Shown here piece by piece: positions 19,801 through 59,520 of a stretch of DNA of 64,000 nucleotides. Location: positions 31,994,001 to 32,058,000 of the forward strand of contig CM059432.1 in assembly GCA_030390025.1 (NCBI GenBank), read 5' to 3'. A model generated the notes under the pieces. It was not told the DNA's origin and made no database searches. It saw only the letters and a program-made list of their open reading frames with translations. This stretch comes from Squalus acanthias. Lineage: Eukaryota. Numbering within the stretch: position 1 is the stretch's first letter; each line of letters opens with the position of its first letter. A program made the translations under genes and the position numbers.

Positions 19801-22800
19801 GGAAGATGCAGGGAGGATGTTGTCCCTGGCTGGGGAGTCTAGAACCAGTGGTCACAGTCTCAGAATAAGGGGTTGCCCATTTAGGAATGAGATGAGGAGA
19901 AATTTCTTCACTCAGAGGGTGGTGAATCTTTGGAATTCTCTACCCCAGAGGGCTGTGGAGGCTCAGTCGTTGAGTATATTCAAGACAGAGATCGATAGAT
20001 TTTTGAATATTAAGCGAATCAAGGGATATGGGGATAGTGCAGGAAGTGGAGATGAGGTAGAAGATCAGTCATGATCTTATTGAATGGCGGAGCAGGCTCG
20101 AAGTGTCAAATGGCCTACTCCTGCTCCTATTTCTTAAGTTCTTAGGTTCTTATGAGATGGATGAGCAGCTGACCACTGGCATTCAAACAAAGAAATATGC
20201 TGGGCCTCCCGATAAATACTCCCACACAGGATTGCGGTCCGCGCCCAACTTCTTCCTGCTGGGAGTTAAATCAACCCTTTGGTGTTGGTTTCAGAATCTA
20301 TTACATAGGATTACATAGGATAATACGGCACAGTAACAGGCCATTCGGCCCAACCAGTCCATGCCGGCATTTATGCTCCACTCGAGCCTCCTCCCGTCTT
20401 TCCTCATCTAACTCTATCAGCATAACCCTCTATTTCCTTCTCCCTCATATGCTTATCTAGTCTCCCCTTAACCGCATTGAAAATATTTGCCTCAACTACT
20501 CCCTGTGGTAACGATTTCCACATTCTCACCACTCTCTGGGTAAAGAAGTTTCTTCTGAATTCCCTATTTGATTTCTTGGTGACTATCTTATATTGATGGC
20601 CTCTAGTTATGCTCTTCCCCACAGTGGAAACACTCTCTATATCTACTCTATCATAACCTTTCATAAGATCTCAATTAGGTCACCCTTTTTTCAAGCGAAA
20701 AGAGACCCAGCCTGTTCATCCTTTCCAGATAGGTATACCCTCTCATTTTTGATATCATCCTTGTAAATCTTCTCTGCACCCTCTCCAGTGCCTCTATATC
20801 CTTTTGATAAGATGGCGACGCAGTACTCCAAGTGTGGTCTAACCAAGGTTCTTAACTTCACTACTTTTCAATTCTATCCCTCTAGAAATAAACCCTAGTG
20901 CCTGGTTTGCTTTTTTTATGGCCTCGCTATTTTTAGTGATTTGTGTATTTGTACTCCGAGATCGCTTTGCTCCTCTACCCCACCCAGACTCGCACCCTCC
21001 AAGTAATAAGTAACCTCCCTATTCTTCCTACTTCACATTTATCTGTGTTGAACTTCATTTGCCAATTATATGCCCATTCTGCAAGTTTATTAATGTCTTC
21101 CTCTAATTTGTTGCAGTCCTCCTCAGTATTAACTATCCCCTCCCCACCCCCCCAATTTGGTGTCATCTGCAAATTTAGAATTGTGTTTTTGATTCCAAAG
21201 TCTAAATCGTTAATATAAATTGTGAACAACAGTGGTTCCAGCACTGATCCTTGTGGAACACCACTACCCACCTTCTGCCACTGTGAATAGCTATCCTTTA
21301 CCCTATCTCTCTGCTTTCTGTCTTGAAGCCAGCTAGCTATCCATTCTGCTACTTGTCCCCTGACTCCACATTCTCTGACCTTATTCGTTAGTCTATTATG
21401 CGGTACCTTATTGAAGGCCTTTTGAAAATACAGATAAATTACATCTACTACATTACCCTTGTCTATTCTCTCTGTTACCTCTTCAAAAAATGTAATGAGG
21501 TTGGTCACGCAAGACTTTCCCTTTTGAAATCCATGCTGACTATTCATTACTATATTTTTGGCTTCTAGATGTTCTTATTTTTCCTTTAGTACGGATTCCA
21601 TTATTTTTCCTACCACCGATGTTAAGCTGACTGGTCTATAATTCCCTGGACATGTTCTATCCCCCTTCTTAAATATAAGTATTATGTAAGCTATCCGCCA
21701 GTCCTCTGGCACTACCCCTTTTTCTAATGATTTATTAAATATGTGTAGTAATGCCCTCTGCTATCTCTTCTCTAGATTCTTTTAAAATGTGTAGATGTAA
21801 TCCATCCAGACCAGAGGTTTATCCTCTTTGAGTTTGATTAGTTTATTTACAATATCTCCTCTTTTTATTTTAAATGCAGCTATTACATTATAATCTGTTC
21901 ACCTGTTCTATCTCCCTGGTAAATACTGAAGCAAAGTAATTATTTAACATTTCTGCCATATCTCTATCACTACCTGTGGTATTATCCTGTCCATCTCTTA
22001 GTGGCCCTATTCCCATTCAACCTTTCTTTTTTTATTGATTTGCCTGTAAAATATTTTACTATTTTGTTTTATGTTCCTTGATAATTTAATTTCATAGGTC
22101 CTCTTTGCCTTCCTAATTGTTTTTTTGACTTGTCTCCTAATCTCTTTGTATTTTCCCTTATCATGCTCTCCCCTGCTGTCCATTTACTTAATGTATGCCT
22201 CTTTCCTTACCCTCAATTTTCCCTTATGGCTTTATTCATCCATGGTGTCTCATTAGTTTTTTAACGGAATATATTTTTCCTGGTCTCTGTTGAACACCGT
22301 TTTCAATGTTTCCCATTGCTGTTCTACATCATTGTTTGCCAATATTGTTGTCCATTTTATTTTCCTAAGTTGTATTCATAGCCCCTCAAAATCAGCGTTT
22401 CTCCAATCTATCACCCTGGTGGTCTTCATACTTATGTCCTTCTCAATTACTATTTTAAAGCATATTATATTATAGTCACTATAGCCTAGATGTTCCCCTA
22501 CTTTTACTTCTCTTATCTGCTCTGGTTCATTCCCCATTACTAGATCCAATAGCGAATCCTCCCTTGTTGGGCTTTTTACATATTGGGTTAGAAAGGAGTC
22601 ATGTACACATTGTAGGAACTCCATTCCCTTATCCTCTTTACCTACCTCTTCTGTCCAATTAATATCAGGGTAGTTGAAATCCTCCATGATTATTATTCTA
22701 TGTTTTTTACTAATTTCCCTAATTTGTTTGCATATTTCCTCCTCCAACTCCCTTCCACTATTACGTGGCCTGTAGACTACCCCTATTAGTGTGATTGATC

Positions 22801-25800
22801 CTTTATTATCTTTTATCTCTAACTACATGGATTCTATTTCTGTCTTGCTGATAGCTTCATCACTTCTTTCTACTGCCATTATGTTATCCCTAATAAGTAC
22901 AGCTACTCCACCTCCCCCTTTCCCCTCTCTATCTTTTCTAAATATGTTATAACCTGCAATGTTTAATTCCCAGTCCTGATTTTTCTGTAGCCATGTCTTA
23001 GTAATCCCTACTATGTCTGGTTCCTCACAACGCATGATTGCCTCCAGCTCCCCTGTTTTATTACGGACACTGTATGCATTGCTGTACAGACAGTTTAACT
23101 CATTTTTAATAGCAGTACCTTTCCCTTTATTTTTAACCATCTTTTTAGACTCCTGTTCTATAACTCTATTTATTCCCTGGCCATCAATGTGCTCCCTTAC
23201 TTTACTCTTTCCTAAGCTCTCCTTTCCTGTTTTGTTTATATTTAGGCTGGTTTCATTTCTTGTAGATCCCTCCCCCCATCTCACTAATTTAAAGCCTTTG
23301 CCACCTTCCTATTTACCCTTTCCACTAGGACACAGGTCCCATCCCAGCTCGGGTGGAGCCTGTCCCATCGGTACAGCTCCTTCCTGTCCCAGTACTGGTG
23401 CCAGTGTCCCATGAAAAGGATCCCCTCTTTCCCGCACCAGCCCTTTAGCCACTTGTTAATTCTCTTGATCTGACTGCTTCTATGCCAATTTGCACATGGC
23501 TCGGGCAATATTCCAGAGATTATTACTCTCGAGGTCCTGCTTTTTAATTTAGCTCCTAACTCCTGATACTCCTTCAGCAGGATCTCCTCCCTGTTCCTAC
23601 CTATGTCGTTTGTTCCGACGTGGACCAATATAACTGGATTTACCCTGTCCCTTTCCAAATTCCTCTCCAGTCGCCTCGAGATATCCCTTACCCTGGCACC
23701 AGGTAGGCAACACACTCTTTGGGATTCTTGTTCTTGGCTGCAGATATCTATTCCCCCTAATTATAGAATCCCCTATCACTACCACATTTCTATTCTGCTC
23801 TTCACCCAACTTGGACAGCCTTCTGAGCCTTGGTCTGCATTGTGGCTGTCCTCCCCGCAGTCTTTCTCCATGTCCTCACAGTTAGCGAGTACATCATCCC
23901 TGTTGGACAGGATCAGTGTCTGCGGGACCTCCTTCTCAACCTCTCCTAAGTCCCTGCTACCCGGCTCTCTAACAGTCACACCCTTCCTTTCCTGAACCTG
24001 TGCTTTCCTCTGGGGTGTGACTGCATTCTGGATAAAACTGTCCAGAAATTCCTCCCCATCCCTTCTGTTTCGGAGTGTCTCCAACTCGCACTCCAGCTCA
24101 ATGACTCTGAGCCGGAGTGACTGAAGGCAGAGACATTTCCTGCAGATGTGGGAATCCGGGACAGTCTCGCTGTCCACAAACTCCCACATACTACAGTCCC
24201 GACACATAGCCTGCCCTGCTATCTCTAATTTTTTTTTATTTATATGCTTATTTAAATTAGTTAAAGTTTTTAATCAAGCGTTATATTAATTAATTAGTTT
24301 ATCCAGTTAAGTTATTAATTTAATAAAGTATTAGTTATTGTTCCCCAGCTCTTAGTTTAAAACACTGCACTAGCTTAGAGAAAAAAATACGCTCTAATAA
24401 TCATCGTCACTCCTTGATTTTTTTCCCCACCCGGCCCCCGGTTAGGTCCGCTCCTCCTCCGCTGCTCACAGTGAGTTTGGGCCTCTCTCTGACTGCGCTC
24501 TTTATTTACCTGCCTCTGCTCCGGTCCCCGGTTAGGTCCGCTCCTCCTCCGCTGCTCACAGTGAGTTTAACTGAGTCTTCGGGAGAGGCTTTGTTCTTGA
24601 ACCGATGCCATGGTATTAAACAACAACAACTTGAATTTATATAGCACCTTTAACCTAGTAAAACCTACCAAGGTGTTTCACAGAGCGTTTCTCACACAAT
24701 TTGGGTGGATGGGATGAAAAATTGGCCAAAATATGACTGCATGTATTCAAAGTAAGCGGCAATGATGGGATACGCCCTATTTCCCATCATTACCCCCATA
24801 GCAATATTCGCATGAGTAACGTTACTGGCATTGACAGGTGCTAAGGACCAGCAGAAGGTAAGTTTAACCCCGCTGCACCCCGCAAAGGATTCACTCCTTC
24901 CTCAAAGGAAGTTTGATAACAGAAATTGAGGCTCCCATTCCCTCCTCTGCAGGTAGTCGGCCCCGCTCCACTACTACACACACCTGAGGACTATTTACTG
25001 CCCCATCCGCGACGGGTACCCTAGCTGAATAATTTAAAGTCAGCCTGGCCCCAGGAAATATTCCGTTAACAATATGGCGGGAGAAAAGCCCACCCCACCC
25101 AGCACTGCCCCTGCCCACCCCACCAAATTAACCCCGCCAATCCCGGCTACGCGAAAGTCTAGGATACTGTATCATTCAATTGTTTTCTTGTTGTTCTGTC
25201 TTCCGTAGGTTCCTCCCTGAGTCTGCGAGATGGCTTATAACAAAAGGTCGAAATGAAGAAGCGAAGAAGTATCTTATGAGTGCAGCAATAATGAACAAAA
25301 GGGTAGTGCCTGAAACAATGCTTGACATGGTATTTATCAAAGTTTAAACGCTTAAAGGAATTGTTTGAGCTGTGTGAATTGTTTTCAGTTGACCATGTTG
25401 GAAAGAAAAGCTTGGTACCATAGCCAAGTTAATAAATTGACACAGCATTTTATTACATCTGAAAGTGCTTCACTTCACTTTGTAGCACAGTGTCTGATGT
25501 GTAAGCAGACACAACAGCTATGGGATGAATGACCAGTTAATCTGGAGTTTAAATCACCAGGAGAATTCCCTGTTGCTCTTCAAATCATCTTCTTCTTAGG
25601 CAGTCCCTCGGAACCGAGGATGACTTGCCTCCACATTAAAAATGAGTTCGCAGGTGACTGATGAGTCCAATGCGGGACCTACAGTCTCTGTCACAGGTGG
25701 GGCAGACGGTGGTTGAAGTGGCGTGTGGGTGGGGTGCTTGGGTTGACGTGCGCTCCTTGCGCTGCCTGCGCTTGGCTTCCGCTTGCTCCCAGCGAAGAGG

Positions 25801-28800
25801 TGTTCGGCGCCTTCCCGGATGCTTCTCCTCCACTTTGTGCGGTCTTGGGCCAGGGATTCCCAGGTGTCGGTGGGGATGTTACACTTTTTCAAGGAGGCTT
25901 TGAGGGTGTCCTTGAAGCGTTTCCTCTGCCCACCTGGGGCTCTCTTGTCGTGCCGGAGCTCCGAGTAGAGCACCTGTTTTGGGAGTCTCGTATCGGGCAT
26001 GCGGACAATGTGACCCGTCCATTGGAGCCGATCGAGCGTGGTCAAAGCTTTGATGCTGGGGATGTTGGCCTTAGCAATTTGCAGGATCTTGCGGAGGCAG
26101 CGTTGGTGGTACCTCTCCAGTGCTTTGAGGTGCCTGCTGTACATGGTCCATGTCTCTGAGGCATACAGCAGGGCGGGTATCACTGCTGCTCTGTAGACCA
26201 TGAGCTTAGTGCTCTTCAAATAGTGCCTGGGAAACAGCCACCTAAACAGACAGCAATGCATTTAATGTCTCATCCAAAGGATAACACCTCTGACAATGTG
26301 TGAGGTGATGCATTTTGGCAGAAGGAACAGGGAGAGGCAATATACACTTAATGGCACAGTTTTAAAGAGTGTGCAGAGACAGAGGGACCTGGGAGTTAAT
26401 GTGCATAGGTTCCTGAAGGTGGCAGGAGATATTGAGAGTGTGGTTATCAAAGCATATGGGATCTTGGGCTTCAAAAATAGAGGTATTGAGTACAAAAGTA
26501 GAGAAGTTATGCTGAACCTTTATAAAGCGCTGGTTAGGCCACAACTGGAGTATTGCGTCCAGTTCTGGTCACCACACTTTAGGAAGGATGTGAAGGCCCT
26601 TGAGAGGGTGCAGAGGAGATTTACCAGAATGGTTCCGGGGATGGGGGATCTTAGCTACAAGGACAGGTTGGAGAAGCTGGATTTGTTTTCATTGGAGCAA
26701 AGGAGGTTGAGGGGTGATTTGATAGAGGTGTACAAGATTATGACGGGTTTGGATAGGCTAGACAGGGAAAGGCTGTTCCCACTAGTTGATGTTACAAGGA
26801 CTAGGGGACACAGATTTAAGGTTTAGGGCAAGAGATACAGGGGGAACATGAGGAAAAACTTTTTTACGCAGTGAGTGGTGATGACCTGGAACTCGCTGCC
26901 GACGGAAGTGGTGGAAACGGAGACACTCAATATTTTCAAGGAGAGACTGGATAGACACTTGAGGGAAATAAACTTGCAGGGCTACGGGGATAGAGCGTGG
27001 GAATGGGTCTGACTGGATTGCTCTACAGAGAGCCGGCACTGACTCGATGGGCTGAATGGCCTCCTTCTGTGCCGTTATGACTCTATGACAATGTAGCATT
27101 CACTCAGTACTCAACTTGAATATAAAGTTAGTTTATGAGCTCAAACCCTGGTGGGGGCTTCAAACACACAACCTTATCACCTCATTCAGTGTGTCAGGCT
27201 TAGCTCAGCGATAGCGCTCTCGTCTCTGCGTCAGAAGGTTGAGGGTTCAAGCCCCACTCCAGAGATTTGAGCACATAATCTAGGCTGACACTTCAGTGCA
27301 GTACTGAGGGAGTGCTGCATTGTTAGAGGTGCTGTCTTTCAGATGATATGTTACACTAAGGCCCCGTCTGCTCTCTTAGGCTGGCATAAAAGATCCCACG
27401 GCACTATATGATAAACAGCAGGAGATTTCCCCTATTTATCTCTCAACCAACTGCACGAAAATCAGATTATCTAGTCATTTATTTCATTGCTGTATGCAAA
27501 TTGGCTGCCGCGTTTCCTACGTTACAACATGACTACACTTCCAAAGTACTTCATTGTGAAGCGCTTTGGGACATCTTGAGGTCGTGAAAGATGCTATGTA
27601 AATGCAAGTTCTTTCTTTCAGTGTTCATATTTGATGAGTCACTTAGGTGGAAATTTTAACCTAAAAAAACAGGTGGGTTGGGGTCGTGTGGAAAGTTAAA
27701 GTGTTAAAAATCTGAATCGTGACCAGAACCCGCCTCCAACCCATCCACTTCCGCCCACAACCCACTGCCAGGAGGTGGTTCGTCTATGTAAATATTATAA
27801 TGAGGCTGCAAGCCTCGGATTTAACCTCCATTTTGAATTGAACTTTAGCTGCTCCAGTTTCGCAGGCCTCGTGAAACCCGGCAGCTAAAGTAAGGCGAGG
27901 ACTGCTGGATCCAGGAGGCTGTCTGCCTCCCCCTCACCCCCCATCCCCACTCCTCCTGGCCCCCTGTGCTCCTCTGGCCTCCTATCTGGTGCTCCGGCCC
28001 CCGATCTGGCTGCGGGTGGGAAACAGAGGTTTCCCTTGCAAATCAGGCCCTGCCGTTAATTCTTCCAGGTTTCCAGACCGCTTCTGAGCACCCCCACTCC
28101 CAACCCGCCTCCCCATTAAAATTCAGGCCTTACTTACTCTGGACGACAATATCCAACACTGTTAGCTTCTGAAAGAGAGAGATAGGTTAGCGGTTTGGGT
28201 GAGGCTCCTTTTCCATAACTGGACTGCATCAGTTCAGGTGAAGCTTTCCATCTCTTTAAGATGCTGACAGGTGGGCTGCATACTTTCTGGTTTTCTTTCT
28301 AGTAATTTCCTGACCTTGGTTGAGCTGTGCATTGAGGATGGGGGTGGCAGAGCCGGTGGAGGTAAATTGATCCTATGCAAGGAGGGAGGGCAGATGGGAA
28401 CATAGGAGCCAAGATCACCCTGAGTATCCGCTTCGCACCATCCAGCATTTGGTTATAGAATCCCATTGACAGTGGCCTGGGAGAATTTCCCTGACGAGCC
28501 GGGGAATGCGGTACTACATGGATGGAGGAAGGACCTAAAAGAGGGAACATATGGAATGGGGGGAACCAGGAATGTACAATTTTTCCAATATTTCTGGTCT
28601 GGAGAAATTTGAATGTGTTTGTTCACATGGATGGTCCTCAGCCAGTCAGATGTTCAGAGTTCACTGATTCTTGGTGCCTAATATTACCACATTTACTTTC
28701 AAGCTTGCGACTGAGAAGGAAATCCAGCAAGCCACCCTTTTGGAACTTTTTAAGTCATCAAGTCTGAGGAGAGTTACGTTGGTTTTGATTTTCATCTGGT

Positions 28801-37222: not shown

Positions 37223-37894
37223 ATCCCACTGTCTTACAAATTTCAGGCCAAATTTCAGTGGAAAATGCAAACGTGACTTAAGATAAATGAACGATGATGC
37301 ACACTCTGTATCATTCCAATACAAGATGTCTGTGTTGCAATCTTGTGATTTGTTGCTCCTTAATGTAGATAAAACTTTGAACTAAATTTCCTTCTTTATG
37401 TACGCTTTATCAAACTGGTCATTTTTAAATCCAAAACCAGAGTTTTATCAGTAAGTGCAGCATCAGGGAAAAGGAAAAGCACACATTGTACAGTTAGCTG
37501 CTGCAGTCCTTTAAATCACTGCAGCAGGGCCTGGAATCCTCCCTTCATGCATGGGAGCTCCCGGGGATCCCTACTATGCAACCAAATTGGTTAACAAATG
37601 TGTTAAAATAACCCATGGAAGAATATGTGTGCTAACGCATTGGTTACAGAAAACTGCTGGAGGCAATTTCACACAAACTTTCCTAAGTTCTTCCCTCATG
37701 AAGATTACCCCCACTGCATCAGTGGGACAGATTCCTATTTACCACAGAACCCATCTTTAAGGCATTCCTAATTTTTTTTTTCATTCATTCTCAGGATATG
37801 ACCATTGCTAGCAAGGCTGGCATTTATTGCCTATCCCTGGTTGCCTTTGAAATGATGGTGGTGGGCCGCCTTCTTGAACCTCTGCAGTCCATAC

Positions 37895-40800
37895 GGGAAC
37901 GGTAGTGTAGTGGTAATGTCACTGGGCTAGTAATCCAGTAGGCCTGGACTAATGATCCAGAGACGTGAGTTCAAATTCAGTTAATTTAATAAATCTGGAA
38001 TAAAAAGCTAGTATCAGTAATGGTGACCATGAAACTATCGGATTGTCGTAAAAACCCATCTGGTTCACTAATGTCCCTTTAGGGAAGGAAATCTGCCGTC
38101 CTTACCTGGTCTGGCCTATATGTGACTCCAGACCCACAGCAATGTGGTTGACTCTTAACCGTCCTCTGCCTAGCAAGTCACTCAGTTGTAACTAACCGCT
38201 ACGAAACAAAATAATAAGAATGAAACTGGACGGACCACCTGGCATCAGCTATGGACACGGCAACGGCACACCCAGCCCAGTCGACCCCGCAAAGTCTTCT
38301 TCACCAACATCTGGGGACTTGTGCCAAAATTGGGAGAGCTGTCCCACAGACTAGTCAAGCAATAACCTGACATAGTCATACTCACAGAATCATACCTTTC
38401 AGCCAATGTCCCAAACTCCTCCATCACCATCCCTGGGTATGTCCTGTCCCACTGACAGGACAGACTCACAAGAGGTGGCGGCACAGTGGTATACAGTCGG
38501 GAAGGAGTGGCCCTGGGAGTCCTCAACATTGACTCCGGGCCCCATGAAGTCTCATGGCTTCAGGTCAAGCATGGGCAAGGAAACCTCCTGCTGATTACCA
38601 CCTACCGCCCTCCCTCAGCTGATGAATCAGTACTCCTCCATGTTAAACACCACTTGGAAGAAGCACTGAGAGTAGCAAGGGCACAGAATGTACTCTGGGT
38701 GGGGGACTTCAATGTCCATCACTAAGAGTGGCTCGGTAGCACCACTACTGACCGAGCTGGCCGAGTCCTGAAGGACATAGCTGCCAGTCTGGTCCTGCGA
38801 CAGGTGGTGAGTGAACCAACACGAGGGAAAAACCTACTTCACCTCGTCCTCACCAATCTACCTGTCGCAGATGCATCTGTCCATGACAGCATTGGCAGCA
38901 GTGACCACCGCACAGTCAGTGTGGAGATGAAGTCCCGTCTTCACACTGAGGACACACTCCATCGTGTTGTGTGGCACTACGACCGTGCTAAATGGGATAG
39001 ATTCAGAACAGATCTAGCAGCTCAAAACTGGGCATCCATGAGGCGCTGTGGGCCATCAGCAGCAGAAGAATTGTATTCCACCACAATCTGTAACCTCATG
39101 GCCTGGCATATCCCTCACTCTACCATTACCACCAAGCCAGGGGATCAACCCTGGTTCAACAAGGAGTGTAGATGAGCATGCCAGGAGCAGCACCAGGCGT
39201 ACCTAAAAATGAGGTGCCAACCTGGGGAAGCTGCAACACAGGACTACATGCATGCTAAAAAACGGAAGCAGCATGCTATAGACAGGGCTAAGCGATCCCA
39301 CAATCAACAGATCAGATCAAAGCTCTGCAGTCCTGTCACATCCAGTCTTGAATGGTGGTGGACCATTAAACAACTAACGGGGGGAGGAGACGGCTTCAAG
39401 AATATCCCCATCCTCAATGATGGTGGAGCCCAGCACGTGAGTGCAAAAGCCAAGGCTGAAGCGTTTGCAACCAACTTCAGCCAGAAGTGCCTATTGGATG
39501 ATCCATATCGGCCTACTCCCGAGGTCCCCACCATCACAGAAGCCAGTCTTCAGCCAATTCGATTCACTTCACGTGATATCAAGAAATGGCTGAGCGCACT
39601 GGATACAGCAAAGGCTATGGGCCCCGACAACATCCCGGATATCGTGCTGAAGACTTGTGCTCCAGAACTAGCCGTGCCTCTAGCCAAGCTGTTCCAGTAC
39701 AGCTACAACACTGGCATCTATCCGACAACGTGGAAAACTGCCCAGGTATGTCCTGTCCACAAAAAGCAGGACAAATTCAACCCGGCCAATTACCGCCCCA
39801 TCAGTCTGCTCTCAATCATCAGCAAAGTGATGGAAGGTTTCTATCAAGCGACACTTACTTACCAATAACCTGCTCACTGATGCCCAGTTTGGGTTCCGCC
39901 AAGACCACTCGGCTCCCGACCTCATTGCAGTCTTGGTCCAAACATGGACAAAAGAGCTGAATTCCAGAGGTGAGGCGCGAGTGACTGCCCTTGACATCAA
40001 GGCAGCATTTGACCGAGTGTGGCATCAAGGAGCCCTAGTAAAACTGAAGTCAATGGGAATCGGGGAAAACGCTCCACTGGTTGGAGTCATACGTAGCACA
40101 AAGGAAGATGGTTGTGGTGGTTGAAGGTCAATCATCACAGCCCCAGGACATCACTGCAGGAGTTCCTCAGGACAGTTTCCTAGGCCCAACCATCTTCAGC
40201 TGATTCATCAATGACCTTCCCTCCAACATAAGGTCAGAAATGGGGATGTTCGCTGATGACTGCACAGTGTTCAGCGCCATTCACAACTCCTCAGATAATG
40301 AAGCAGTCCATGCCCGCATGCAACAAGACCTGGACGACGCTCAGGCTTGGGCTGATAAGTGGCAGGTAACATTCGCGCCACAGAAGTGCCAGGCAATGAC
40401 TATCTCCAACAAGCGAGAGTCAAACCACCTCCCCTTGACATTCAATGGCATTACCATCGCTGAATCCCCCACTATCAACATCCTGGGGGGTCACCATTAA
40501 CCAGAAACTGAACTGGACCAGCCACATAAATACTGTGGCAACAAGAGCAGGTCAGAGGCTAGGTATTCTGCAGCGAGTGTCTCACCTCCTGACTCCCCAA
40601 AGCCTTTCCACCATCTACAAGGTACAAGTAAGGAGTGTGATGGAATACTCTCCACTTGCCTGGATGAGTGCAGCTCCAACAACACTCAAGAAACTCGACA
40701 CCATCCAGGACTAAGCAGCCCGCTTGATTGGCACCCCATCCACCACCTTAAACATTCACTCCCTCCACCACCGGCACACCGTGGCTGCTGTGTGCACCAT

Positions 40801-41154
40801 CTACAAGATGCACTGCAGCAACTCGCCAAGGCTTCTTCGGCAGCACCTCCTAAACCCACGACCTCTTCCACCTAGAGGGACAAGGGCAGCAGGCACATGG
40901 GAACATCACCACCTACAAGTTCTCCTCCAAGTCACACACCATCCTGACTTAGAAGTATATCGCCGATCCTTCATCGTCGCTGGGTCAAAATCCTGGAACT
41001 CCCTCCTAACAGCACTGTGGGAGTACCATCACCACATGGACTGCAGCGGTTCAAGAAGGCGGCTCACCACCACCTTCTCAAGGGCAACTAGAGATGGGCA
41101 ATAAATGCTGGCATTGCCAGCGACGCCCAGATCCCATAAACAAATTAAAAAAAA
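37895..41154 (+). mobile_element. Full-length, decayed single-ORF CR1/L2-group LINE (APE+RT) with tRNA-derived head and Deu domain
   Basis: A box tagtgtagtgg 37903, B box gttcaaattc 37969, Deu-like domain 38050-38160, APE (TNIWGL, LTESYL, VGDFN, SDH), RT (GPDNIP, DIKAAFD, FADD), poly(A); several stops and frameshifts; inserted into an antisense tail of its own family (37775-37894 and 41155-41310). Confidence 0.85.
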
Positions 41155-41435
41155 ATACTCCCACAATGCTGTTAGGCAGGGAGTTCCAGGATTTTGACCC
41201 AGCGACGGTGAAGGAACAGCAATATATGTCCAATTCAGGATGCTATGTGACTTGGTGGGGAACTTGGAGGTAATAGTGTTCCCATGCAACTATTGTCCTT
41301 GTCCTTCTAAGTTGATTATTTAGTGCTGAATTGTGGACAGTTTCATGTTATGGGCCCATGTCTGCTGGGAACTGGACTGAGACTGCCCAAACTCACTTCA
41401 CATAGGGATTGCACACCTTTGGGATTTCAGACAAT

Positions 41436-43924: not shown

Positions 43925-44325
43925 CAAGTATAGTTATGTTACTGAACTAATAATCCAGAGAATGTGAGTTAAAATCTCAGCATGAGAATTTGAATTCAGT
44001 GTTTAAAAAAAACTGGTCTCAGTAAAAGGGACCATGAAGCTGCCGGATTGTAGGGAAACCCCAACTGATGCACTAATGTCCTTTTGGGAAGGAAACCTGC
44101 CTCCCTTAGCCAGTCTGGCCCATATGTGACTCCAGTGCCACATCAATGTGGTTGACTCTTAACAACCCTTTGAAATGGTCTAGCAAGTCATTCAATTGTA
44201 TCAAACTGCTGCAGAGACTAGCAGTTCAAGAAAAAGACTCACCAACACCTTATCAAGGTAACTAGGGTACGCAATAAATGTCGACCTTGCCAGCGATGCC
44301 CACATCCTGATAATTAATTATTTTT
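43925..44325 (+). mobile_element. DeuSINE (SacSINE1-like): tRNA head, Deu domain, LINE tail
   Basis: cactaatgtccttt..ggaaggaaacctgcc..tgtgactccag..tgtggttgactcttaac, then a tail matching 41043-41135. Confidence 0.8.
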
Positions 44326-46374
44326 AAAGTATGTTTGAAGCCCTCCTAAAGTCAGATGAAGGGTAAAGCTCCTTCTACACTGCCCCCAAAATATGCCAGG
44401 CACCCAATGTCACATTCCAACTTTCTATAGCAGCTGTGCTTCTGGCCTCTTTGACTAATACTGCACAGCTAAAGTTTACGCCATTTCTCAGCGGGTTCTG
44501 CCGATCTCCTGCTGAAGATTGGGACAACCACCGCAGAAATTCAGGGCCCCAAGCTGGACTGAGATTTGGACACTTCTCAGGTAAACTATCAAAATCTAGG
44601 GATTTCCACTTCAAGCTTTCAGTCTCTGAACTTTGAGTTCCTGCAAATACACATTACGATATCTGTAACAGAAAACACAATATGGAAAGCATCTTATATG
44701 GAAAGTATCAAAAGATTTCAACTTATGTGATCCTATTTTCTTTCTTTATGCCTTGACTCATACTGGGGTACAGCTCCATGGACATTTGCAGCACTCTAGT
44801 ACCTCATTCTAGTTGTCATACTTAAGATGTGACACTTCAGGTGTGAGCTTAGATAATGAGTGTTAGCCGGCTAAGAACTGGGAATTAATCTCCTCAATCT
44901 CTTTGATTTAGGGCTTGTCATTGTTTTAGGGATCACGAAGTTCAAAAGAGCCGTGCATAATTTTTGTCATGACAATGCCTTGGTATGAGGTGTAATTATG
45001 TTGTCCCCTACAGATTTTGTCTTTGTGAAGCATCATCATGCTGTGTGTCAAAGCTCTTGACACATTACAATGACCTTTTAATGGAGTGAGGAATATGTTT
45101 GAGGAAGACCTCAAACAAATATTGTACACCTTTCCAAAGTAGCTTCAGAAATCTCATCTTTCCCCTGGGCACTCTGGTATGAACATTGTCCTCAGTAACT
45201 TTAAACTTTAGCTATCTCCTCCATTTCCATTACTGTAGGGGTTGCTGGCAATGTAGGGGTTGGTCTGTCTGCGGAGGGGGAAGAAGGGTTGACCTTTTGG
45301 ATGGGGAAACCGCTCTGTCAGAACACTGTGCTGATGGTAGTGGTGGTGGTGAGGTTGCTGTGCTCTCCTTGTTAACCTGTTCTTTCTCTTTTCAGTGCTG
45401 GTTGATCTGCTTTACTTTACCAGCACCTTCTATTTCATTTTCAAAGCTGATTTCATTTCACACCTAACCCCCAGGATTTACATCCCTCCCATTTTCTTCC
45501 ATTTTCCTCAGGCCTTGCATTTCCCTAGCTATTCGCATTAGTTTCTTTAAAACCTTTAATTTCTTCAATGTTTCTGTCTATTACTTGACTATAACTCACT
45601 CCATGGCTGTTTTTCATCTCTGTGCTTGTTTCGGGATGTGCACATCGCTGGCAATGCCGGCATTTATTGCCCATCCTAGTTGTCCTTGAGAAGGGGCAAA
45701 AGAGGAGCAGGCCCACCGCAGCCTCTCTGCCCCCAGCTCCATTTCCTTCCCCCACCCGTCATCCCTTCTCTACCTGCCAAATAAAAATACAGACTGAGGA
45801 TGGGGGAGGGCTGCACCTAGCTTCCTGGTCTGTTTTGCACCTTTCTACTCCTCTCATTGCCACTCCCCAGGATCACCTAGTGGGAGGTGACAGGAGGCCC
45901 AGGGTAGCAACAGAAAGGGCCTAGTGGAGGTCTACTCCCCCTCCAATTCAGCCTCTTCATCTTTGGAGCTCTTCTGCTTCTTTAATTAATTCCATGCCAC
46001 CTCTTCTGGGTGCTGCAGCACCGTCTCATTCCCATCTTGGGTACTGGTGGGGTCCCTCTTGATGGTGGGAGTCTCCCTCGGGAGCCTGCCCTGCATAGCA
46101 AGTGCCTGACCTAGGAAAATGTTCGTGGGTTAGGGCAGAGTTGGAGGGACGGATGGAAGACCCGCCACACTACTACTACACCCCAAAGAGGAGAATCCTC
46201 TCCTTGATTTCAACACAGTGAGGTTACAGGAAGAAGGAAAAATGTATTAGATGGCGTTCTTGGAGACTAGGTGGAACAAGAGAAAAAATTTCCAGACGAG
46301 CAATGGCCATAGCAGTATCGATAAAACAGAGAAAGATAAGAGAGAGCATTTGGAAATGTCTTAAAAATAAAGAA

Positions 46375-50334: not shown

Positions 50335-50444
50335 CTGAAAAAGAAAAAAGATGCCTTGCATCACACCAAGAAATAGTAAACTAATGTGTCATGCAAAGTC
50401 AGTTGGATATAGCGTGTTAATTAGATAATTATAGATAATCCAGG

Positions 50445-51995
50445 TCCTCACCACTCGCTGCATAAAAAAGTTTTTCCTCACATTCCCCCTGTATCTCTTG
50501 CCCTAAACCTTAAATCTGTGTCCCCTAGTCCTTGTAACATCAACTAGTGGGAACAGACTTTCCCCATCTAGCCTATCCAAACCCGTCATACACCTCTATC
50601 AAATCACCCCTCAACCTCCTTCGCTCCAATGAAAACAAATCCAGCTTCTCAACCTGTCCTTGTAGCTAAGATCCCCCATCCCCGGAACCATTCTGGTAAA
50701 TCTCCTCTGCACCCTCTCAAGGGCCTTCACATCCTTCCTAAAGTGTGGTGACCAGAGCTGGATGCAATGCTCCAGTTGTGGCCTAACCAGCGCTTTATAA
50801 AGATTCAGCATAACTTCTCTACTTTTGTACTCAATACCTCTATTTATGAAGCCCAAGATCCCATATGCTTTGTTAACCACTCTCTCAATATGTCGTGCCA
50901 CCTTCAGGGACCTATGCACATTAACTCCCAGGTCCCTCTGTCCCTGCACACTCTTTAAAACTGTGCCATTAAGTGTATATTGCCTCTCCCTGTTCCTTCT
51001 GCCAAAATGCATCACCTCACATTTCTCTGTATTAAATTCCATCTGCCACTTGTCTGCCCATTCTGCTAGCCTTTCTATGTCCTGTTGCAGTCGATTGGTA
51101 TCATCCTCACTGTTTGCCACACCCCCAAGTTTGGTGTCATTGGCAAATGTAGAAATTCTACTCTGTATTCCAGCTAATTTATATATATATCAAAAAATGC
51201 AGTGGCCCCAGCACTGACCCTTGGGAACACCACTGTCTACCATCCTCAAGTCTGAAAAACAGCCATTTACCACAACTCGCTGTTTTCTGTACTTAAGCCA
51301 GTTCCTTATCCAAGCTGCCACTGACCCACCTATTCCATGAGCCTCAATTTTGTTAACAAGCCTTCTATGTGGTACTTTGTCAAACACCTTCCTAAAATCC
51401 ATGTAGACAACATCCATTGCATTCCCTTCATCAATCCTCCCTGTTACTTCATCAAAAAATTCAATTAGATTCATCAAACACGATCTGCCTTTTACAAATC
51501 CGTGTTGGCTCTCCATAATTAGCTTAAACCTCTCCAAGTACCCGTTAATTTTTTCCTTGATTATTGTTTCTAAAACTTTACCCACCACTGATGTTAAACT
51601 GACCGGCCTATAGTTACTAGGATCGTCCTTACACCCTTTCTTGAACAATGGTGTCACATTTGCCACTTTCCAATTCTCAGGCACCTCCCCCACATCTAGG
51701 GAAGATTGGAAAATTATGGCAAGCCCTTCCGCTATCTCCTCCCCCAATTCTCTTAGCAACCTGGGATGCAAGCCATCTGGACTTATCCACTGTAAGCATA
51801 CCCAGCCTTTTTAGTACATCCTGTCAATCAATTTTCACCCCTTCCATTGCTTCTACCTTTTCCGCTTCTACCTTTTCCACTTCTACCGATATTTTGTCAG
51901 CATCCACCTCCTTAGTAAACACCGATACAAAGTACTCATTGAGTATTCTAGCCTTGCCTTGTGCCTCTAAGCATATATCACCTTCTTTGTCCCTA
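50445..51995 (-). mobile_element. CR1 LINE RT fragment
   Basis: ORFs 50611-51120, 51190-51771, 51824-52054. Confidence 0.9.
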
Positions 51996-52416
51996 GGCCT
52001 ATATTCTCTAGAGTTTAGAAGAATGAGAGGTGATCTCATTGAAACATACAACATTTTTACAGGGCTTGACAGGGTAGTTGCAGGGAGGATGTTTCCCCTG
52101 ACTGGGGAGTCTAGAACCAGGGATCACAGTCTCAGAATAAGGGGTCGGCCATTTAGGACGGAGATGAGGAGAATTTTCTTCACGCAGAGGGTGGTGAACC
52201 TTTGGAATTCTCTACCCCAGAGGGCTGTGGAGGCTCAGTCGTTGAGTATATTCAAGACAGAGATCGATAGATTTTTGAAGATCAAGGGAATCAAGAGATA
52301 TAGGGATAGTGCAGGAAAGTGGAGATGAGGTAGAAGAAGACCCATGATCTTATTGAATGGCGGAGCAGGCTCAAAGGGCCAAATGGCCTACTCCTGCTCC
52401 TATTTCTTATGTTCTT
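51996..52416 (+). mobile_element. CR1 LINE 3' fragment, followed by a Deu-LINE tail at 52436-52615
   Basis: Nearly identical to 19724-20150. Confidence 0.85.
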
Positions 52417-53020
52417 AAAAGTTTAGTGCTGGGGCTTCATCGTCGCTGGGTCAAAATCCTGGAACTCCCTACCTAACAGCACTATGGGAGTACCTTAACC
52501 ACATGGACTGCAGTGCTTCAAGAAGGTGGCTCACCACCACCTTCTCAAGGGCAAGTAGGGATGGGCAATAAATTTGGCCTTGCTAGTGACGCCCATATCC
52601 CAAGAATTAATTTTTTTTAAATGAAGTAAGAGGAGGCCATGACTAAGTGCTTTCCCTCCATGCACTAACTTGGGAAACTTATCACTCAGAGCCTACCACG
52701 ATCTTTCTCCTAGCAGTTCCTGGGGTCGGTGGAGATAGCGTCGGTAAAGGAGCCTTTCCACTGGCATCTACATGTGGTGGGTGAGGAAGGGATGGCTAAT
52801 GGCTGTCCCAGCAGGGGCAGGAAGCGGGAAATCGAGTTCAGGGCAGGAGCAGAGAAGTAGGCCTCACTATCTGACTTTTCCCCATTTCCACTGCTAGCCC
52901 ACCCAATTTTGGGCAGAATGGTGGAGGAAAATTCAGTCTGTCTCAAGAACTCCCAGGTTAGATGTGACATGGTTAGATGCAAAGTTAAGCGCTCTCTATT
53001 CTGCCCCAGCAAAAGGGCAG

Positions 53021-56922: not shown

Positions 56923-59520
56923 TTCTTTGATGAAATAACGGAGAGGGTTGAGGAAGGTAGTGCAGTTGATGTTGTGTATATGGACTTTCAACAGGCATTT
57001 GATAAAGTACCGCATACTAGCCTGTGTCTCAGCCAGTGGCTCAGTTGGTAGCATAGGATTACATAGGATATACGGCACAGAAACAGGCCATTCGGCCCAA
57101 CCAGTCCATGCCGGCGTTTATGCTCCACTTGAGCCTCCTCCCGTCTTTCCTCATCTAAATCTATCAGCATAACCCTCTATTCCCTTCTCCCTCATATGCT
57201 TGTCTAGCCTCCCCTTAAATGCATCGATACTATTCGCTTCAACCACTCCCTGTGGTAGCGAGTTCCACATTCTCATCACTCTTTGGGTAAAGAAGTTTCT
57301 TCTCAATTCCCTATTGGATTTCTTGGTGACTATCTTATATTGATGGCCTCTAGTTATGCTCCTCCCCACAAGTGGAAACATTCCCTCTGTATCCACTCTT
57401 ATCAAAACCTTTCATAATTTTGAAGACCTCTATTAGGTCACCCCTCATCCTTTTTTCAAGAGAAAAGAGACCCAGCCTGTTCATCCTATCCTGATATGTA
57501 TACCCTCGCATTTCTGGTATCATCCTTGTAAATCTTTTCTGCACCCTCTCCAGTGCCTCTATATCCTTTTTATAATATGTGGAATTCTCTACCACAGAAG
57601 GCTGTGGAGGCCAAGTCACTGAATATATTTAAGAAGGAGATAGATAGATTTCTAGACACAAAAGGCATCAAGGGGTATGGGGAGAGAGCAGGAATATGGT
57701 ATTGAGATAGAGGATCAGCCATGATCATATTGAATGGCGGAGCAGGCTCGAAGGGCCGAATGGCCTACTCCTGCTCCTATTTTTCTATGTTTCTATAATA
57801 TGGCGACCAGAACTGTACGCTGTACTCCAAGCACCCTTGCCTCTGAGTCCGAAGGTTGTGAATTCATAGTCCCACTCCAGAGACTTGAGCACAAAAAATC
57901 TAGGCTGGTAGTACTGAGGGAGTGCTGCGCTGTCAGAGGTGCCGTCTTTTGGATGAGACATTAAACAGAGGCCCTGTCTACTCTCTCAGGTGGGCATAAA
58001 AGATCCCATAGCACTATTTCAAAGAAGAGCAGGGGAGTCCTGGCCAATACTTATCCCTAAATCAATATCACAAAAAAAACCCAGATTATCTGGTCATTAT
58101 CACATTGCTGTATGTGGGATCTTGCTGTGCACAAATTGGCTGCTGCATTTCCTATATTATAACAGTGACTACACTTCAAACAGTACTTCTCTGGCTGTAA
58201 AGCGCTTTGGGACGATGGTAGTTGTGAAAGGCGCTATATAAATGCAAGTCTTTCTTTTCCTTTTTCTCCTTTAGGTAAATCGAAGCCCATGGGATTACAG
58301 GGGCAGTGGGAGCGTGGATACAATCGAAGCCCATGGGATTAAAGGGGCAGTGGGAGCGTGGATACAATCGAAGCCCATGGGATTAAAGGGGCAGTGGGAG
58401 CGTGGATACAATCGAAGCCCATGGGATTAAAGGGGCAGTGGGAGCGTGGATACAATCGAAGCCCATGGGATTAAAGGGGCAGTGGGAGCGTGGATACAAT
58501 CGAAGCCCATGGGATTACAGGGGCAGTGGGAGCGTGGATACAATCGAAGCCCATGGGATTACAGGGGCAGTGGGAGCGTGGATACAATCGAAGCCCATGG
58601 GATTAAAGGGGCAGTGGGAGAGTGGATACAATCGAAGCCCATGGGATTAAAGGGGCAGTGGGAGCGTGGATACAATCGAAGCCCATGGGATTACAGGGGC
58701 AGTGGGAGCGTGGATACAATCGAAGCCCATGGGATTACAGGGGCAGTGGGAGCGTGGATACAATCGAAGCCCATGGGATTAAAGGGGCAGTGGGAGCGTG
58801 GATACAATCGAAGCCCATGGGATTAAAGGGGCAGTGGGAGCGTGGATACAATCGAAGCCCATGGGATTAAAGGGGCAGTGGGAGCGTGGATACAAAATTG
58901 GCTAAGAGTAGAAAGCAGAGGGTAGTGGTAAATGGCTGATTATCAGACTGGAGGGAAGATACAGTGGTCTCCCTCAGGGATTAGGACCACTGCTCTTTTT
59001 GGTATATATTAATGACCTGGACTTGGGTATAGGAGGCAATTTTTTAAATTTTGCAGATGGCACAAAACTTGGCAATGTAATAAACAGTGAGGAGGATAGT
59101 GGTAGACTTCAGGAGGACATAGACAGACTGGTGAAATGGGCAGACACATGGCAGATGAAGTTTAATGCAGAGAAGAGTGAAGTGTTGCATTTTGGAAGGA
59201 AGATAGATAGGGCAAAACTGTTTCCACTAGCAGGAGAGTCACAGATTTAAGATAATTGGCAAAGAACCAAGGGGGAGATGAGAAATCTTTATATGCAGTG
59301 AGTTGTTATGATCTGGAATGCACTGCCTGAAAAGGCAGTGCAAGTAGATTCCATAGTAACGTTCAAAAGGAAATTGGATAGCTACTTGAAAAGCAAAAAT
59401 TTTCAGGACTATGGGGAAAGAGCAGGGGATGGGACTAATTGGATAGCTCTTTCAAATAGCCAGCACAGGCATGATGGGCTGAATGGCCTCCTTCTGTGCT
59501 GTAAAATTCTATGATTCTAT
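56923..59520 (+). mobile_element. CR1 RT fragment, split by a SINE and carrying a tandem array
   Basis: FFDEITER..YMDFQQAFDKVPH | [28 protein letters not shown]. Confidence 0.8.
58278..58893 (+). repeat. 44-bp minisatellite, 14 copies, derived from CR1 RT sequence
   Basis: aatcgaagcccatgggatta(a/c)aggggcagtgggagcgtggatac x14; encodes IEAHGIKGAVGAWIQ. Confidence 0.95.

What the first reader, a model, noticed from the sequence alone, without database searches (positions are those of the whole stretch)
37895..41154. Candidate RNA polymerase III-transcribed autonomous LINE: tRNA head + Deu domain + APE-RT ORF with no TTTT in 3.26 kb
Seen: the element sits as one unit inside an antisense copy of its own tail. 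The host resumes at 41155 and ATAC occurs at both junctions. Its first bases are a tRNA-like head (A box 37903-37913, B box 37969-37978), then a Deu-type domain, then directly an endonuclease+RT frame and poly(A), with no ORF1. By manual scan the sense strand has zero runs of 4 or more T but 15 runs of 4 or more A, whereas the 1.4-kb CR1 at 18722-20153 has about 7 T4+ runs on its sense strand. Established: vertebrate Pol III terminates at T4+; LINEs normally use Pol II; DeuSINEs are non-autonomous; tRNA-headed LINEs are known to me only in other clades (Ingi/Vingi). Inference: the family is transcribed end-to-end by Pol III from a SINE-type promoter, and its coding sequence has been purged of terminators. 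This copy is dead (several stops).
Basis: partly seen in the sequence, partly recalled or inferred. Interest (0 to 1): 0.9.

Follow-up and report, generated by a model that had tools for sequence, protein, structure and literature searches.

The report
LINE retrotransposon with SINE-type tRNA head
This is a dead copy of an abundant 3.3-kb self-copying element (LINE) whose whole front end is the kind of tRNA-derived promoter module normally seen only on short parasitic SINEs, which raises the unproven possibility that RNA polymerase III transcribes a protein-coding mobile element.

Summary
Window 37895-41154 is one insertion, flanked by ATAC, inside an older antisense copy of a related tail. 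It has a tRNA-derived head, a SINE-type body, a broken endonuclease-RT frame, a short A-run and no ORF1.

The head-ORF junction is not a chance adjacency. In 29 copies retrieved with ORF sequence alone, 14 start at the same first base of the head. The other 15 are cut short at different points. None has another 5' end or an ORF1. A slightly older subfamily has the same layout. Of 20 of the 39 best non-self matches to the 5' module alone, 17 run on into the ORF and none is a SINE. A SINE in the window equals this LINE's 5'UTR joined to its last ~110 bases.

T4+ runs are absent family-wide: 9 of 13 copies have none and the rest have 1-2. Base shuffles give P about 0.01. Other LINEs show T4+ at or above expectation. 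But codon-preserving shuffles expect only 0.7-2.1 runs (P 0.06-0.63), so this is weak evidence.

Polymerase III transcription is the most economical reading of the fixed 5' end, at about 0.5, but it is not shown. I found no prior description. Interest is high.

The parts
37891..37894 (.). left copy of the 4-nt target-site duplication ATAC
   Evidence: the same four bases lie at 41155-41158
37895..37980 (+). tRNA-derived head. A box 37903-37913. B-box remnant 37967-37978. This copy lacks 28 nt that other copies have after GAGTTC.
   Evidence: Rfam tRNA 26.3 bits and ARAGORN tRNA-Thr on the head of one other copy
37981..38219 (+). SINE-type (Deu-like) body, which makes up the rest of the LINE's 5'UTR
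   Evidence: shared with the SINE at 43942-44210; co-inherited with the ORF
38220..38354 (+). short ATG-initiated ORF (44 codons here, 48 in most copies) that overlaps the long ORF in another frame
   Evidence: out of frame with the endonuclease frame in 20 of 22 copies that keep both marker motifs
38192..41104 (+). endonuclease plus reverse-transcriptase ORF, broken by stops and three frame changes; no in-frame ATG at its start
41040..41146 (+). 3' tail shared with the genome's SINEs
   Evidence: alignment with the SINE at 44150-44330
41147..41155 (+). terminal A-run of 9 A (the last A may belong to the target-site duplication)
   Evidence: A-runs of 5-10 in other copies
41155..41158 (.). right copy of the target-site duplication ATAC
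37774..37892 (-). host: 3' end of an older antisense related tail (left half)
   Evidence: 79% to element 3142-3260
41156..41315 (-). host: the same older antisense tail (right half)
   Evidence: 82.5% to element 2973-3131
43930..44325 (+). older 5'-truncated SINE made of the LINE 5'UTR (to about position 306) joined directly to the LINE's last ~110 nt

Best explanation
The locus is a dead, full-length copy of an abundant, fairly young, 3.3-kb autonomous LINE. I place it in the CR1/L2 group from the literature, not by a tree.

The LINE has one long endonuclease-RT ORF. Its entire 5'UTR is a SINE-type module: a tRNA-derived head of about 100 nt with A and B boxes, then about 220 nt of Deu-like body that the genome's SacSINE1-like SINEs also carry. 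The module is inherited together with the ORF, so the RNA that is copied back into DNA starts at the first base of the head.

Most likely mechanism: the head's internal promoter sets that start, as it does in SINEs. This would work through TFIIIC on the A and B boxes, with TFIIIB upstream. RNA polymerase III would then make the full-length RNA. It can run through because the sense strand holds no run of four or more T, and it would stop at the first T-run in the 3' flank.

The ORF would have to be translated without a cap and without a normal start. Eight upstream ATGs precede it by my count on the alignment, the only nearby ATG is out of frame, and the long frame has no ATG at its start. The protein then acts on the shared 3' tail by target-primed reverse transcription. 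The SINEs are the same element without its ORF.

Shown here: the anatomy, the recurrence, the inheritance as a unit, the family-wide absence of T4+, and the SINE-LINE relation. Inferred: which polymerase acts, where the RNA ends, and how the ORF is translated.
For: (1) Recurrence. A 606-nt query across head, body and ORF start gave 40 of 40 scored matches on many contigs at 88-92% identity. Of these, 38 begin within the first 18 bases and 2 begin at query bases 73 and 76 (9278 first-look candidates).

(2) A sample not biased towards heads. The ORF-only query gave 29 loci besides the window's own. Of these, 14 start at GGGAAC/TGGTAG..., and 15 are truncated at 15 different points. The 5' flanks are unrelated, and none has another 5'UTR or an ORF1.

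(3) Full-length copies. Of the 12 of those 14 that I could fetch whole, 8 run from head to A-run, with short possible target duplications.

(4) Inheritance as a unit.
- Non-CpG pairwise divergence is 0.044 in the head, 0.045 in the body and 0.033-0.042 in the ORF.
- All 4 carriers of the 5'UTR variants 284C+299A fall in one ORF-defined subfamily (4 of 9 against 0 of 18, Fisher p = 0.007).
- A second, older subfamily has the same head-to-A-run layout with its own head variants. Two full-length copies are 83-85% identical to the window copy.
- The B box is identical in both subfamilies, and the A box differs only at an unspecified position.

(5) The youngest heads sit on LINEs. I fetched the sequence downstream of 20 of the 39 best non-self matches to the 322-nt 5' module (95-97% identity). 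Seventeen continue into the ORF, 3 are interrupted and 0 are SINE-type.

(6) T4+ runs.
- Nine of 13 copies have none. The other four have 5 runs in all.
- The column-majority string has none. The older copies have 0 and 2.
- Base shuffles give P(0) = 0.0095.
- Other LINE fragments in the window have 33 against 24 expected.
- Forty related LINE ORFs from metagenomes have 896 against 698 expected, and none has zero.
- TTT makes up 1-3 of 10-19 Phe codons, against 25-46% T-ending in the other NNY pairs.

(7) No spare promoter region. SINE similarity runs to about position 306 and the ATG is at 326-360, so there is no separate LINE-specific 5'UTR that could hold an old promoter.
Against: - Codon-preserving shuffles of the open segments expect only 0.7-2.1 T4+. 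P(at most observed) is 0.06-0.63 across 8 copies. The T4 absence is therefore largely explained by codon usage and low Phe content.
- All copies share ancestry, so the T4 result is one observation, not many.
- The field's stated view is that non-LTR elements are Pol II products and that weak Pol III processivity limits Pol III-driven elements to about 1.3 kb or less (Kojima 2024, passages read). I found no precedent for a Pol III-made mRNA of 3.3 kb.
- AATAAA lies about 37 nt before the A-run and again at its start. This would also suit Pol II cleavage and polyadenylation.
- A CpG-rich patch (observed/expected 1.04) sits at positions 301-450, as in Pol II internal promoters of other LINEs.
- The two subfamilies differ by only about 2% fixed differences, so the association is shown over a shallow time depth.
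- None of the 47 best protein matches is free of stops, though 8 have a single stop.
Confidence: 0.5

Rival explanations
1. Pol II element with a switched 5' end. The LINE replaced its 5'UTR with a SINE 5' module, in line with the known habit of LINEs to swap 5' ends. It is still transcribed by RNA polymerase II, which starts at the same first base. This could use TBP placed by TFIIIB, or elements in the body or in the CpG-rich ORF start. The RNA is capped and polyadenylated. The absence of T4+ is a by-product of codon usage.
For: - 5' end switching of LINEs is documented (bioRxiv 10.1101/2022.11.04.512097, passages read).
- Codon-preserving shuffles leave zero T4+ unremarkable.
- AATAAA lies near the 3' end.
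- A CpG-rich patch lies at positions 301-450.
- The general view is that LINEs are Pol II products and that Pol III processivity is low.
Against: - An old internal LINE promoter would start downstream of an added head, so progeny would lose the head. Yet 14 of 29 unbiased copies and both subfamilies start at head base 1.
- No separate LINE 5'UTR is left.
- Eight upstream ATGs (my count on the alignment) and no in-frame ATG fit cap-dependent scanning poorly too.
- A-runs are short and uniform at 5-10 A, not the decayed long tails expected of polyadenylated templates.
Confidence: 0.38
2. Repeated chimeras. The LINE's own RNA starts inside the body. At each insertion the reverse transcriptase jumps, within the shared Deu-like homology, onto a SINE RNA and finishes at the SINE's head. 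On this reading the head is never part of the LINE transcript.
For: - Template switching by LINE reverse transcriptases is established and is invoked for SINE birth (papers read).
- Fifteen of 29 copies end within the first 313 bases.
- The linked 5'UTR variants (284, 299) lie near the ORF and could belong to a LINE-own part.
Against: - The 15 truncation points are all different, with no peak that would mark a second start site.
- Among 20 of the 39 best non-self matches to the 5' module, none is a SINE, so an equally young and abundant SINE donor is not seen.
- Head divergence equals ORF divergence.
- Head variants track LINE subfamilies.
Confidence: 0.05
3. Chance adjacency or nested insertion of a SINE fragment next to a 5'-truncated LINE at this one locus.
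For: SINE and LINE fragments are very dense in this genome (544,837 first-look candidates for the protein).
Against: - The same junction occurs in 40 of 40 scored matches on many contigs.
- It occurs in 14 of 29 ORF-selected copies.
- There is no SINE tail between the body and the ORF.
- A single ATAC duplication brackets the whole unit.
Confidence: 0.01

Closest known systems
SacSINE1 / LmeSINE1-type DeuSINEs (tRNA head + Deu domain + L2/CR1-like tail)
   Same: The order is the same: a tRNA-derived head with A and B boxes, a central body, then a LINE-type tail. The SINE in this window is this LINE's 5'UTR joined to its last ~110 nt. Published descriptions fit: SacSINE1 is 463 bp, tRNA-derived, carries a Deu domain, and has a tail homologous to L2-2_CM.
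   Different: This element is 3.3 kb and encodes an endonuclease and a reverse transcriptase between body and tail. DeuSINEs are by definition short and non-coding. Identity of the body with the published Deu domain was not checked against a reference sequence, because none was available.
L2/CR1-group partner LINEs of DeuSINEs (L2-2_CM; CR1-4_DR-like)
   Same: It has a single endonuclease-RT ORF, a compact size, and a 3' tail shared with the SINE. The literature names these LINEs as the tail donors.
   Different: In Kojima's 2018 survey of Repbase, only RTE and Vingi 5' regions matched SINE bodies. A CR1/L2-group LINE whose 5'UTR is the SINE head plus body is not in what I read. No RT tree with named references was made here.
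Bipartite non-autonomous LINEs and the head-addition model of SINE birth (Bov-tA; Vingi-2_ACar / SINE2-1_ACar)
   Same: The SINE equals the LINE 5' part plus the LINE 3' part. This is what the model predicts for the origin of SINE bodies.
   Different: In that model the tRNA head is added to an already deleted, Pol II-transcribed LINE derivative. Here the head sits on the full autonomous LINE.
LINE 5' end switching (mammalian L1 families, plant RTE)
   Same: A conserved ORF and 3' end combined with an exchangeable 5'UTR or promoter.
   Different: The known donors supply Pol II promoters. Here the donor-like module is a Pol III type-2 promoter unit.
Cassandra, Helenus and Ajax (TRIMp3): LTR elements with Pol III promoters
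   Same: A retroelement that carries a small-RNA-derived internal Pol III promoter.
   Different: Those are non-coding and at most about 1.3 kb. Their autonomous partners are assumed to use Pol II.

Membership tests
APE-type LINE (autonomous non-LTR retrotransposon) | apurinic-type endonuclease domain | tested here: met
   Pfam Exo_endo_phos_2 at E 2.3e-11 and Exo_endo_phos at E 1.3e-07
APE-type LINE (autonomous non-LTR retrotransposon) | reverse-transcriptase domain | tested here: met
   Pfam RVT_1 at E 5.4e-15 and 4.8e-09 in two frame pieces; 1431 homologues of 915-2610 aa
APE-type LINE (autonomous non-LTR retrotransposon) | dispersed copies with variable 5' truncation, a common 3' end and target-site duplications | tested here: met
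APE-type LINE (autonomous non-LTR retrotransposon) | an intact ORF in at least some copies (present-day autonomy) | tested here: inconclusive
   none of 47 scored protein matches is free of stops; 8 have one stop
CR1/L2 group | placement of the RT in a tree with named reference elements | not testable with these tools
   No Repbase or Dfam references were available, and homologues carry no clade names. The assignment rests on the literature about the SINE tail.
DeuSINE (SacSINE1-type) | tRNA-derived head with A and B boxes | tested here: met
   (9 of 13 copies match a strict A...B pattern)
DeuSINE (SacSINE1-type) | central Deu domain | tested here: inconclusive
   The body is shared with a SINE of SacSINE1-like build, but no reference Deu sequence could be obtained.
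DeuSINE (SacSINE1-type) | short, non-coding, non-autonomous | tested here: not met
   3.3 kb with an endonuclease-RT ORF
Pol III type-2 (tRNA-like) transcription unit | A box and B box at tRNA-like spacing from the first base | tested here: met
   The A box TAGC[G/A]TAGTGG lies at bases 9-19 and the B box GAGTTCAAATCC at about bases 72-82. The consensus motifs used for comparison are recalled.
Pol III type-2 (tRNA-like) transcription unit | no internal T4+ terminator before the intended 3' end | tested here: met
   not significant under codon-preserving shuffles
Pol III type-2 (tRNA-like) transcription unit | Pol III, TFIIIC or TFIIIB occupancy, 5'-triphosphate RNA, inhibitor profile | not testable with these tools
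   no run on record as RNA
Pol III type-2 (tRNA-like) transcription unit | length in the range of known Pol III products (hundreds of bases) | tested here: not met
   3.3 kb; the range is as stated by Kojima 2024
tRNA gene | cloverleaf with an acceptor stem | tested here: not met
   ARAGORN of 13 heads. Rfam tRNA scores 26.3 bits, under the 29-bit cut-off, matches model positions 7-64 only, and shows a 22-nt insert.

The most novel reading that the evidence does not exclude
This would be the first autonomous retrotransposon whose retrotransposition-competent, protein-coding RNA is made end to end by RNA polymerase III from a tRNA-derived internal promoter. The RNA would be translated without a cap. 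It would also mean that the Deu-type SINE body is simply this LINE lineage's 5'UTR, so that SacSINE1-type DeuSINEs arise by internal deletion of a tRNA-headed LINE.
Probability: 0.45. Interest if true: 0.95.

Novelty: new variant of a known kind. Interest (0 to 1): 0.78.

Why it matters
Textbook and current specialist writing split retroposons cleanly: LINEs are Pol II products, and SINEs are short because they are Pol III products.

This LINE family's only 5'UTR is a complete SINE promoter module, and its copies all begin at the SINE start base. It either breaks that split or shows Pol II using a Pol III promoter platform. Either result would be new and can be tested directly on an abundant natural family.

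It also bears on an old open question, the origin of conserved SINE central domains. Here the Deu-like body, the head and the tail all lie on one autonomous element, and the SINE is that element minus its ORF.

Tried and rejected
- RNA evidence. The look-up of sequencing runs listed no holder on record as RNA. Laying contigs of four coded runs showed only that the LINE and SINE-type joints (body end joined to tail) exist in several coded organisms. Those runs may be DNA, so nothing follows about expression, start sites or polymerase.
- Reference check of the Deu label. Motif searches of the paper library found nothing relevant. The supplements of PMC5499810 were not readable. Nishihara 2006 and the 2011 Vingi paper are not held.
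- Prior description. Searches found no paper describing a tRNA-headed autonomous LINE. Repbase and Dfam could not be consulted.
- Earlier notes of this scan held nothing.
- Other LINE families of this genome as T4 controls. A search with a distant homologue returned only this family.
- Heads in distant relatives. ARAGORN found none in 48 metagenome loci, but it also misses 12 of 13 heads of this family, so that blank means little. A strict A...B pattern found 0 of 32 upstream regions against 9 of 13 family copies. Many of those contigs may lack the true 5' end.
- RNase P processing of a read-through transcript as the source of the exact 5' end. I consider this unlikely because the head lacks an acceptor stem.
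- Selection on the A and B boxes. The test had too few subfamily differences: 4 fixed differences in 99 head sites.
Full report
**What is at the locus**

Window 37895-41154 begins GGGAACGGTAG and ends in a run of 9 A. ATAC lies directly before it (37891-37894) and after it (41155-41158). On either side lies one older, antisense copy of a related 3' tail. Bases 37774-37892 match element positions 3142-3260 at 79%, and 41156-41315 match positions 2973-3131 at 82.5%. The whole 3.26 kb therefore entered as one piece.

Pfam finds an apurinic-type endonuclease and a reverse transcriptase in frames broken by stops and three frame changes. The long frame opens at element position 298, directly after the SINE-like part, so there is no ORF1.
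- The B box is only partly present in this copy. A private 28-nt deletion removes what most other copies have after GAGTTC.
- The 'Deu' label could not be checked against a reference.

**Is the head-ORF junction a family property?**

Yes. A 606-nt query across head, body and ORF start gave 40 of 40 scored matches on many contigs at 88-92% identity (9278 first-look candidates, so counts are floors).

To avoid selecting for heads, I searched with ORF sequence only (4391 candidates; top matches 95-96%) and looked upstream in the 29 loci other than the window's own.
- Fourteen begin at the same first base, one of them with an internal deletion in the head.
- Fifteen are truncated at fifteen different points between about base 43 and base 313.
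- The flanks are unrelated to each other.
- None shows another 5'UTR or an ORF1.

Eight of the 12 run from the head to the A-run, and four are cut or rearranged further 3'. Their junctions show short, partly imperfect target duplications.

**Is the head inherited with the ORF or added each time?**

Four lines of evidence point to inheritance.
- Among 13 copies the non-CpG pairwise divergence is 0.044 in the head, 0.045 in the body and 0.033-0.042 in the ORF.
- In 30 copies (29 junction-selected loci plus the window), an ORF-defined subfamily (T at 1505 and 1580; 9 copies; 3 ambiguous copies dropped) holds all four carriers of two non-CpG 5'UTR variants. That is 4 of 9 against 0 of 18 (Fisher p = 0.007). 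Those two sites lie near the ORF, so this alone does not prove that the head itself is linked.
- Starting from an 87%-identical RT fragment at 12833-13092, I fetched the expected 5' regions of 12 of its 39 nearest relatives. Four show a head with its own variants (GCATAGTGGTTATGTT where the young family has GCGTAGTGGTAATGTC). One runs on beyond the fetched piece, and seven have no match, presumably because they are truncated. Two of the four, fetched whole, are full-length from head to A-run and 83-85% identical to the window copy. The two subfamilies differ by about 2% fixed differences in the ORF, 1% in the body and 4% in the head, so the time depth shown is modest.
- A query of the 322-nt 5' module alone gave 40 matches at 95-97%. 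I fetched 220 nt downstream of 20 of the 39 non-self matches. Seventeen continue into the ORF (one with an internal deletion), three are interrupted soon after the ATG (two of these are duplicates on one contig), and none is a SINE.

The youngest copies of the module therefore sit on LINEs. An equally young SINE that could donate heads by template switching is not seen.

**Relation to SINEs**

The SINE at 43930-44325 aligns with the LINE's 5'UTR up to about position 306 and then directly with the LINE's last ~110 nt. Contigs of four coded runs show many joints of the same kind. I use that only to say that such forms exist.

Published descriptions fit this build. SacSINE1 is a 463-bp tRNA-derived SINE with a Deu domain and a tail homologous to an L2 (or 'CR1-4_DR-like') LINE (passages read). 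The vertebrate Deu domain is given as 330 bp. My recollection is that the body here is the Deu domain; no call confirms it.

**The head as a promoter**

Copies read TAGC[G/A]TAGTGG at bases 9-19 and GAGTTCAAATCC at about bases 72-82. These fit the A- and B-box consensus as I recall it, the B box with two departures. Rfam's tRNA model matches positions 7-64 of one head at 26.3 bits (cut-off 29), with a 22-nt insert and no acceptor stem. ARAGORN calls the same head tRNA-Thr. The other 11 loci and the window give nothing. It is thus a degenerate tRNA derivative, as in SINEs, and not a tRNA gene.

**The T4 argument**

The absence is real at family level.
- Nine of 13 copies have no T4+. The other four have five runs in all, two of them at one mutable TTT site.
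- The column-majority string has none.
- The two older copies have 0 and 2.

Against base composition this is unusual, with a mean of 4.5 and P(0) = 0.0095 in 2000 shuffles. Other LINEs do not share it.
- Eight LINE fragments in the window (9.45 kb) have 33 T4+ against 24.0 expected.
- Forty related LINE ORFs from metagenome contigs have 896 against 698 expected, and none has zero. Those are much richer in A+T.

I kept either the protein and codon usage, or the codon set, within the open segments of 8 copies. The expectation is then only 0.7-2.1 runs, and P(at most observed) is 0.06-0.63. Phe is rare, and TTT is used for 1-3 of 10-19 Phe codons against 25-46% T-ending in other NNY pairs. That is in the direction of avoidance, but the copies are not independent. 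I rate the T4 absence as consistent with Pol III read-through, not as evidence of a purge.

**Which polymerase?**

Nothing here measures it. The argument for Pol III is structural.
- The RNA that gives rise to new copies must start at head base 1.
- That is where the A/B-box promoter starts SINE RNA.
- No separate LINE 5'UTR remains that could hold an older internal promoter.
- An older promoter placed downstream of an added head would produce headless progeny.

The arguments against are as follows.
- The stated low processivity of Pol III and the length range of known Pol III elements (Kojima 2024, passages).
- The need to translate an uncapped RNA.
- AATAAA lies about 37 nt before the A-run.
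- A CpG-rich patch lies at the ORF start.

LINEs are known to swap 5' ends for new Pol II promoters. A Pol II reading, in which the polymerase uses the platform set by the head, remains a strong rival. I put Pol III at about 0.5, Pol II at about 0.38, repeated template switching at about 0.05 and chance at about 0.01.

**Translation**

The nearest ATG opens a 42-55-codon ORF, most often 48 codons. It is out of frame with the endonuclease frame in 20 of 22 copies that keep both marker motifs; 8 of the 30 copies lacked a motif. The long frame has a stop at position 295-297 and no ATG before the endonuclease. By my count on the alignment, eight further ATGs lie in the 5'UTR. Whatever the polymerase, the start of translation is unusual.

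**Novelty**

Seven literature searches and the passages read gave no description of an autonomous LINE with a tRNA-derived head. Kojima's 2018 survey found only RTE and Vingi 5' regions in SINE bodies. Repbase and Dfam were not available, so a database entry may exist. I class the finding as a new variant of a known kind. If Pol III transcription is shown, it would be a new kind.

Noticed in passing
window 38220-38354 and the same place in loci L002-L030 and L061-L072: The only ATG near the ORF start opens a ~48-codon ORF that overlaps the endonuclease-RT frame one base out of register (20 of 22 copies). The long frame has no ATG of its own but encodes an Arg/His-rich stretch upstream of the endonuclease. 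This suggests non-AUG initiation, frameshifting or reinitiation.
   Followed up: partly
element positions 301-450 (window about 38195-38345): A small CpG-rich patch (observed/expected 1.04 against 0.1-0.86 elsewhere). It is also the most indel-prone and divergent part of the element (non-CpG p = 0.065).
   Followed up: partly
window 37972-37973: This copy has a private 28-nt deletion between two AAAT repeats. It removes the end of the B box and the acceptor-like part of the head.
   Followed up: yes
window 44310-44325 and 52596-52612; L165 3137-3146: Older tails of this lineage end in AATTAATT or GAATGAAT followed by a T-run (T5-T8), where the young LINE has an A-run. Whether that T-run belongs to the element (a built-in Pol III terminator in the SINE form) or to the target site was not resolved.
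   Followed up: no
window 52330-52410; 5' flank of L040: Another abundant repeat (...GACCCATGATCTTATTGAATGGCGGAGCAGGCTC...) recurs next to unrelated copies of the LINE.
   Followed up: no
window 13768-16680 (-), 18726-20005 (+), 21014-23155 (-), 26344-26961 (+), 50404-51822 (-), 58675-59202 (+): Fragments of other, more distant LINE families (21-38% amino-acid identity to the query proteins) with ordinary T4+ counts. No head or Deu-like sequence of this family was found next to them by blastn.
   Followed up: partly
L171 and L180 (both on contig C1615): Two copies of the 5' module with near-identical (one base differs) non-LINE sequence after the ATG region, about 181 kb apart. This is probably a segmental duplication.
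   Followed up: no
window 37700-37924, run X5 (coded organism B): A 1-kb contig covers the left flank and runs 30 bases into the head, while the X1 contig stops at 37892. The insertion may be shared by, or polymorphic among, the coded organisms.
   Followed up: no
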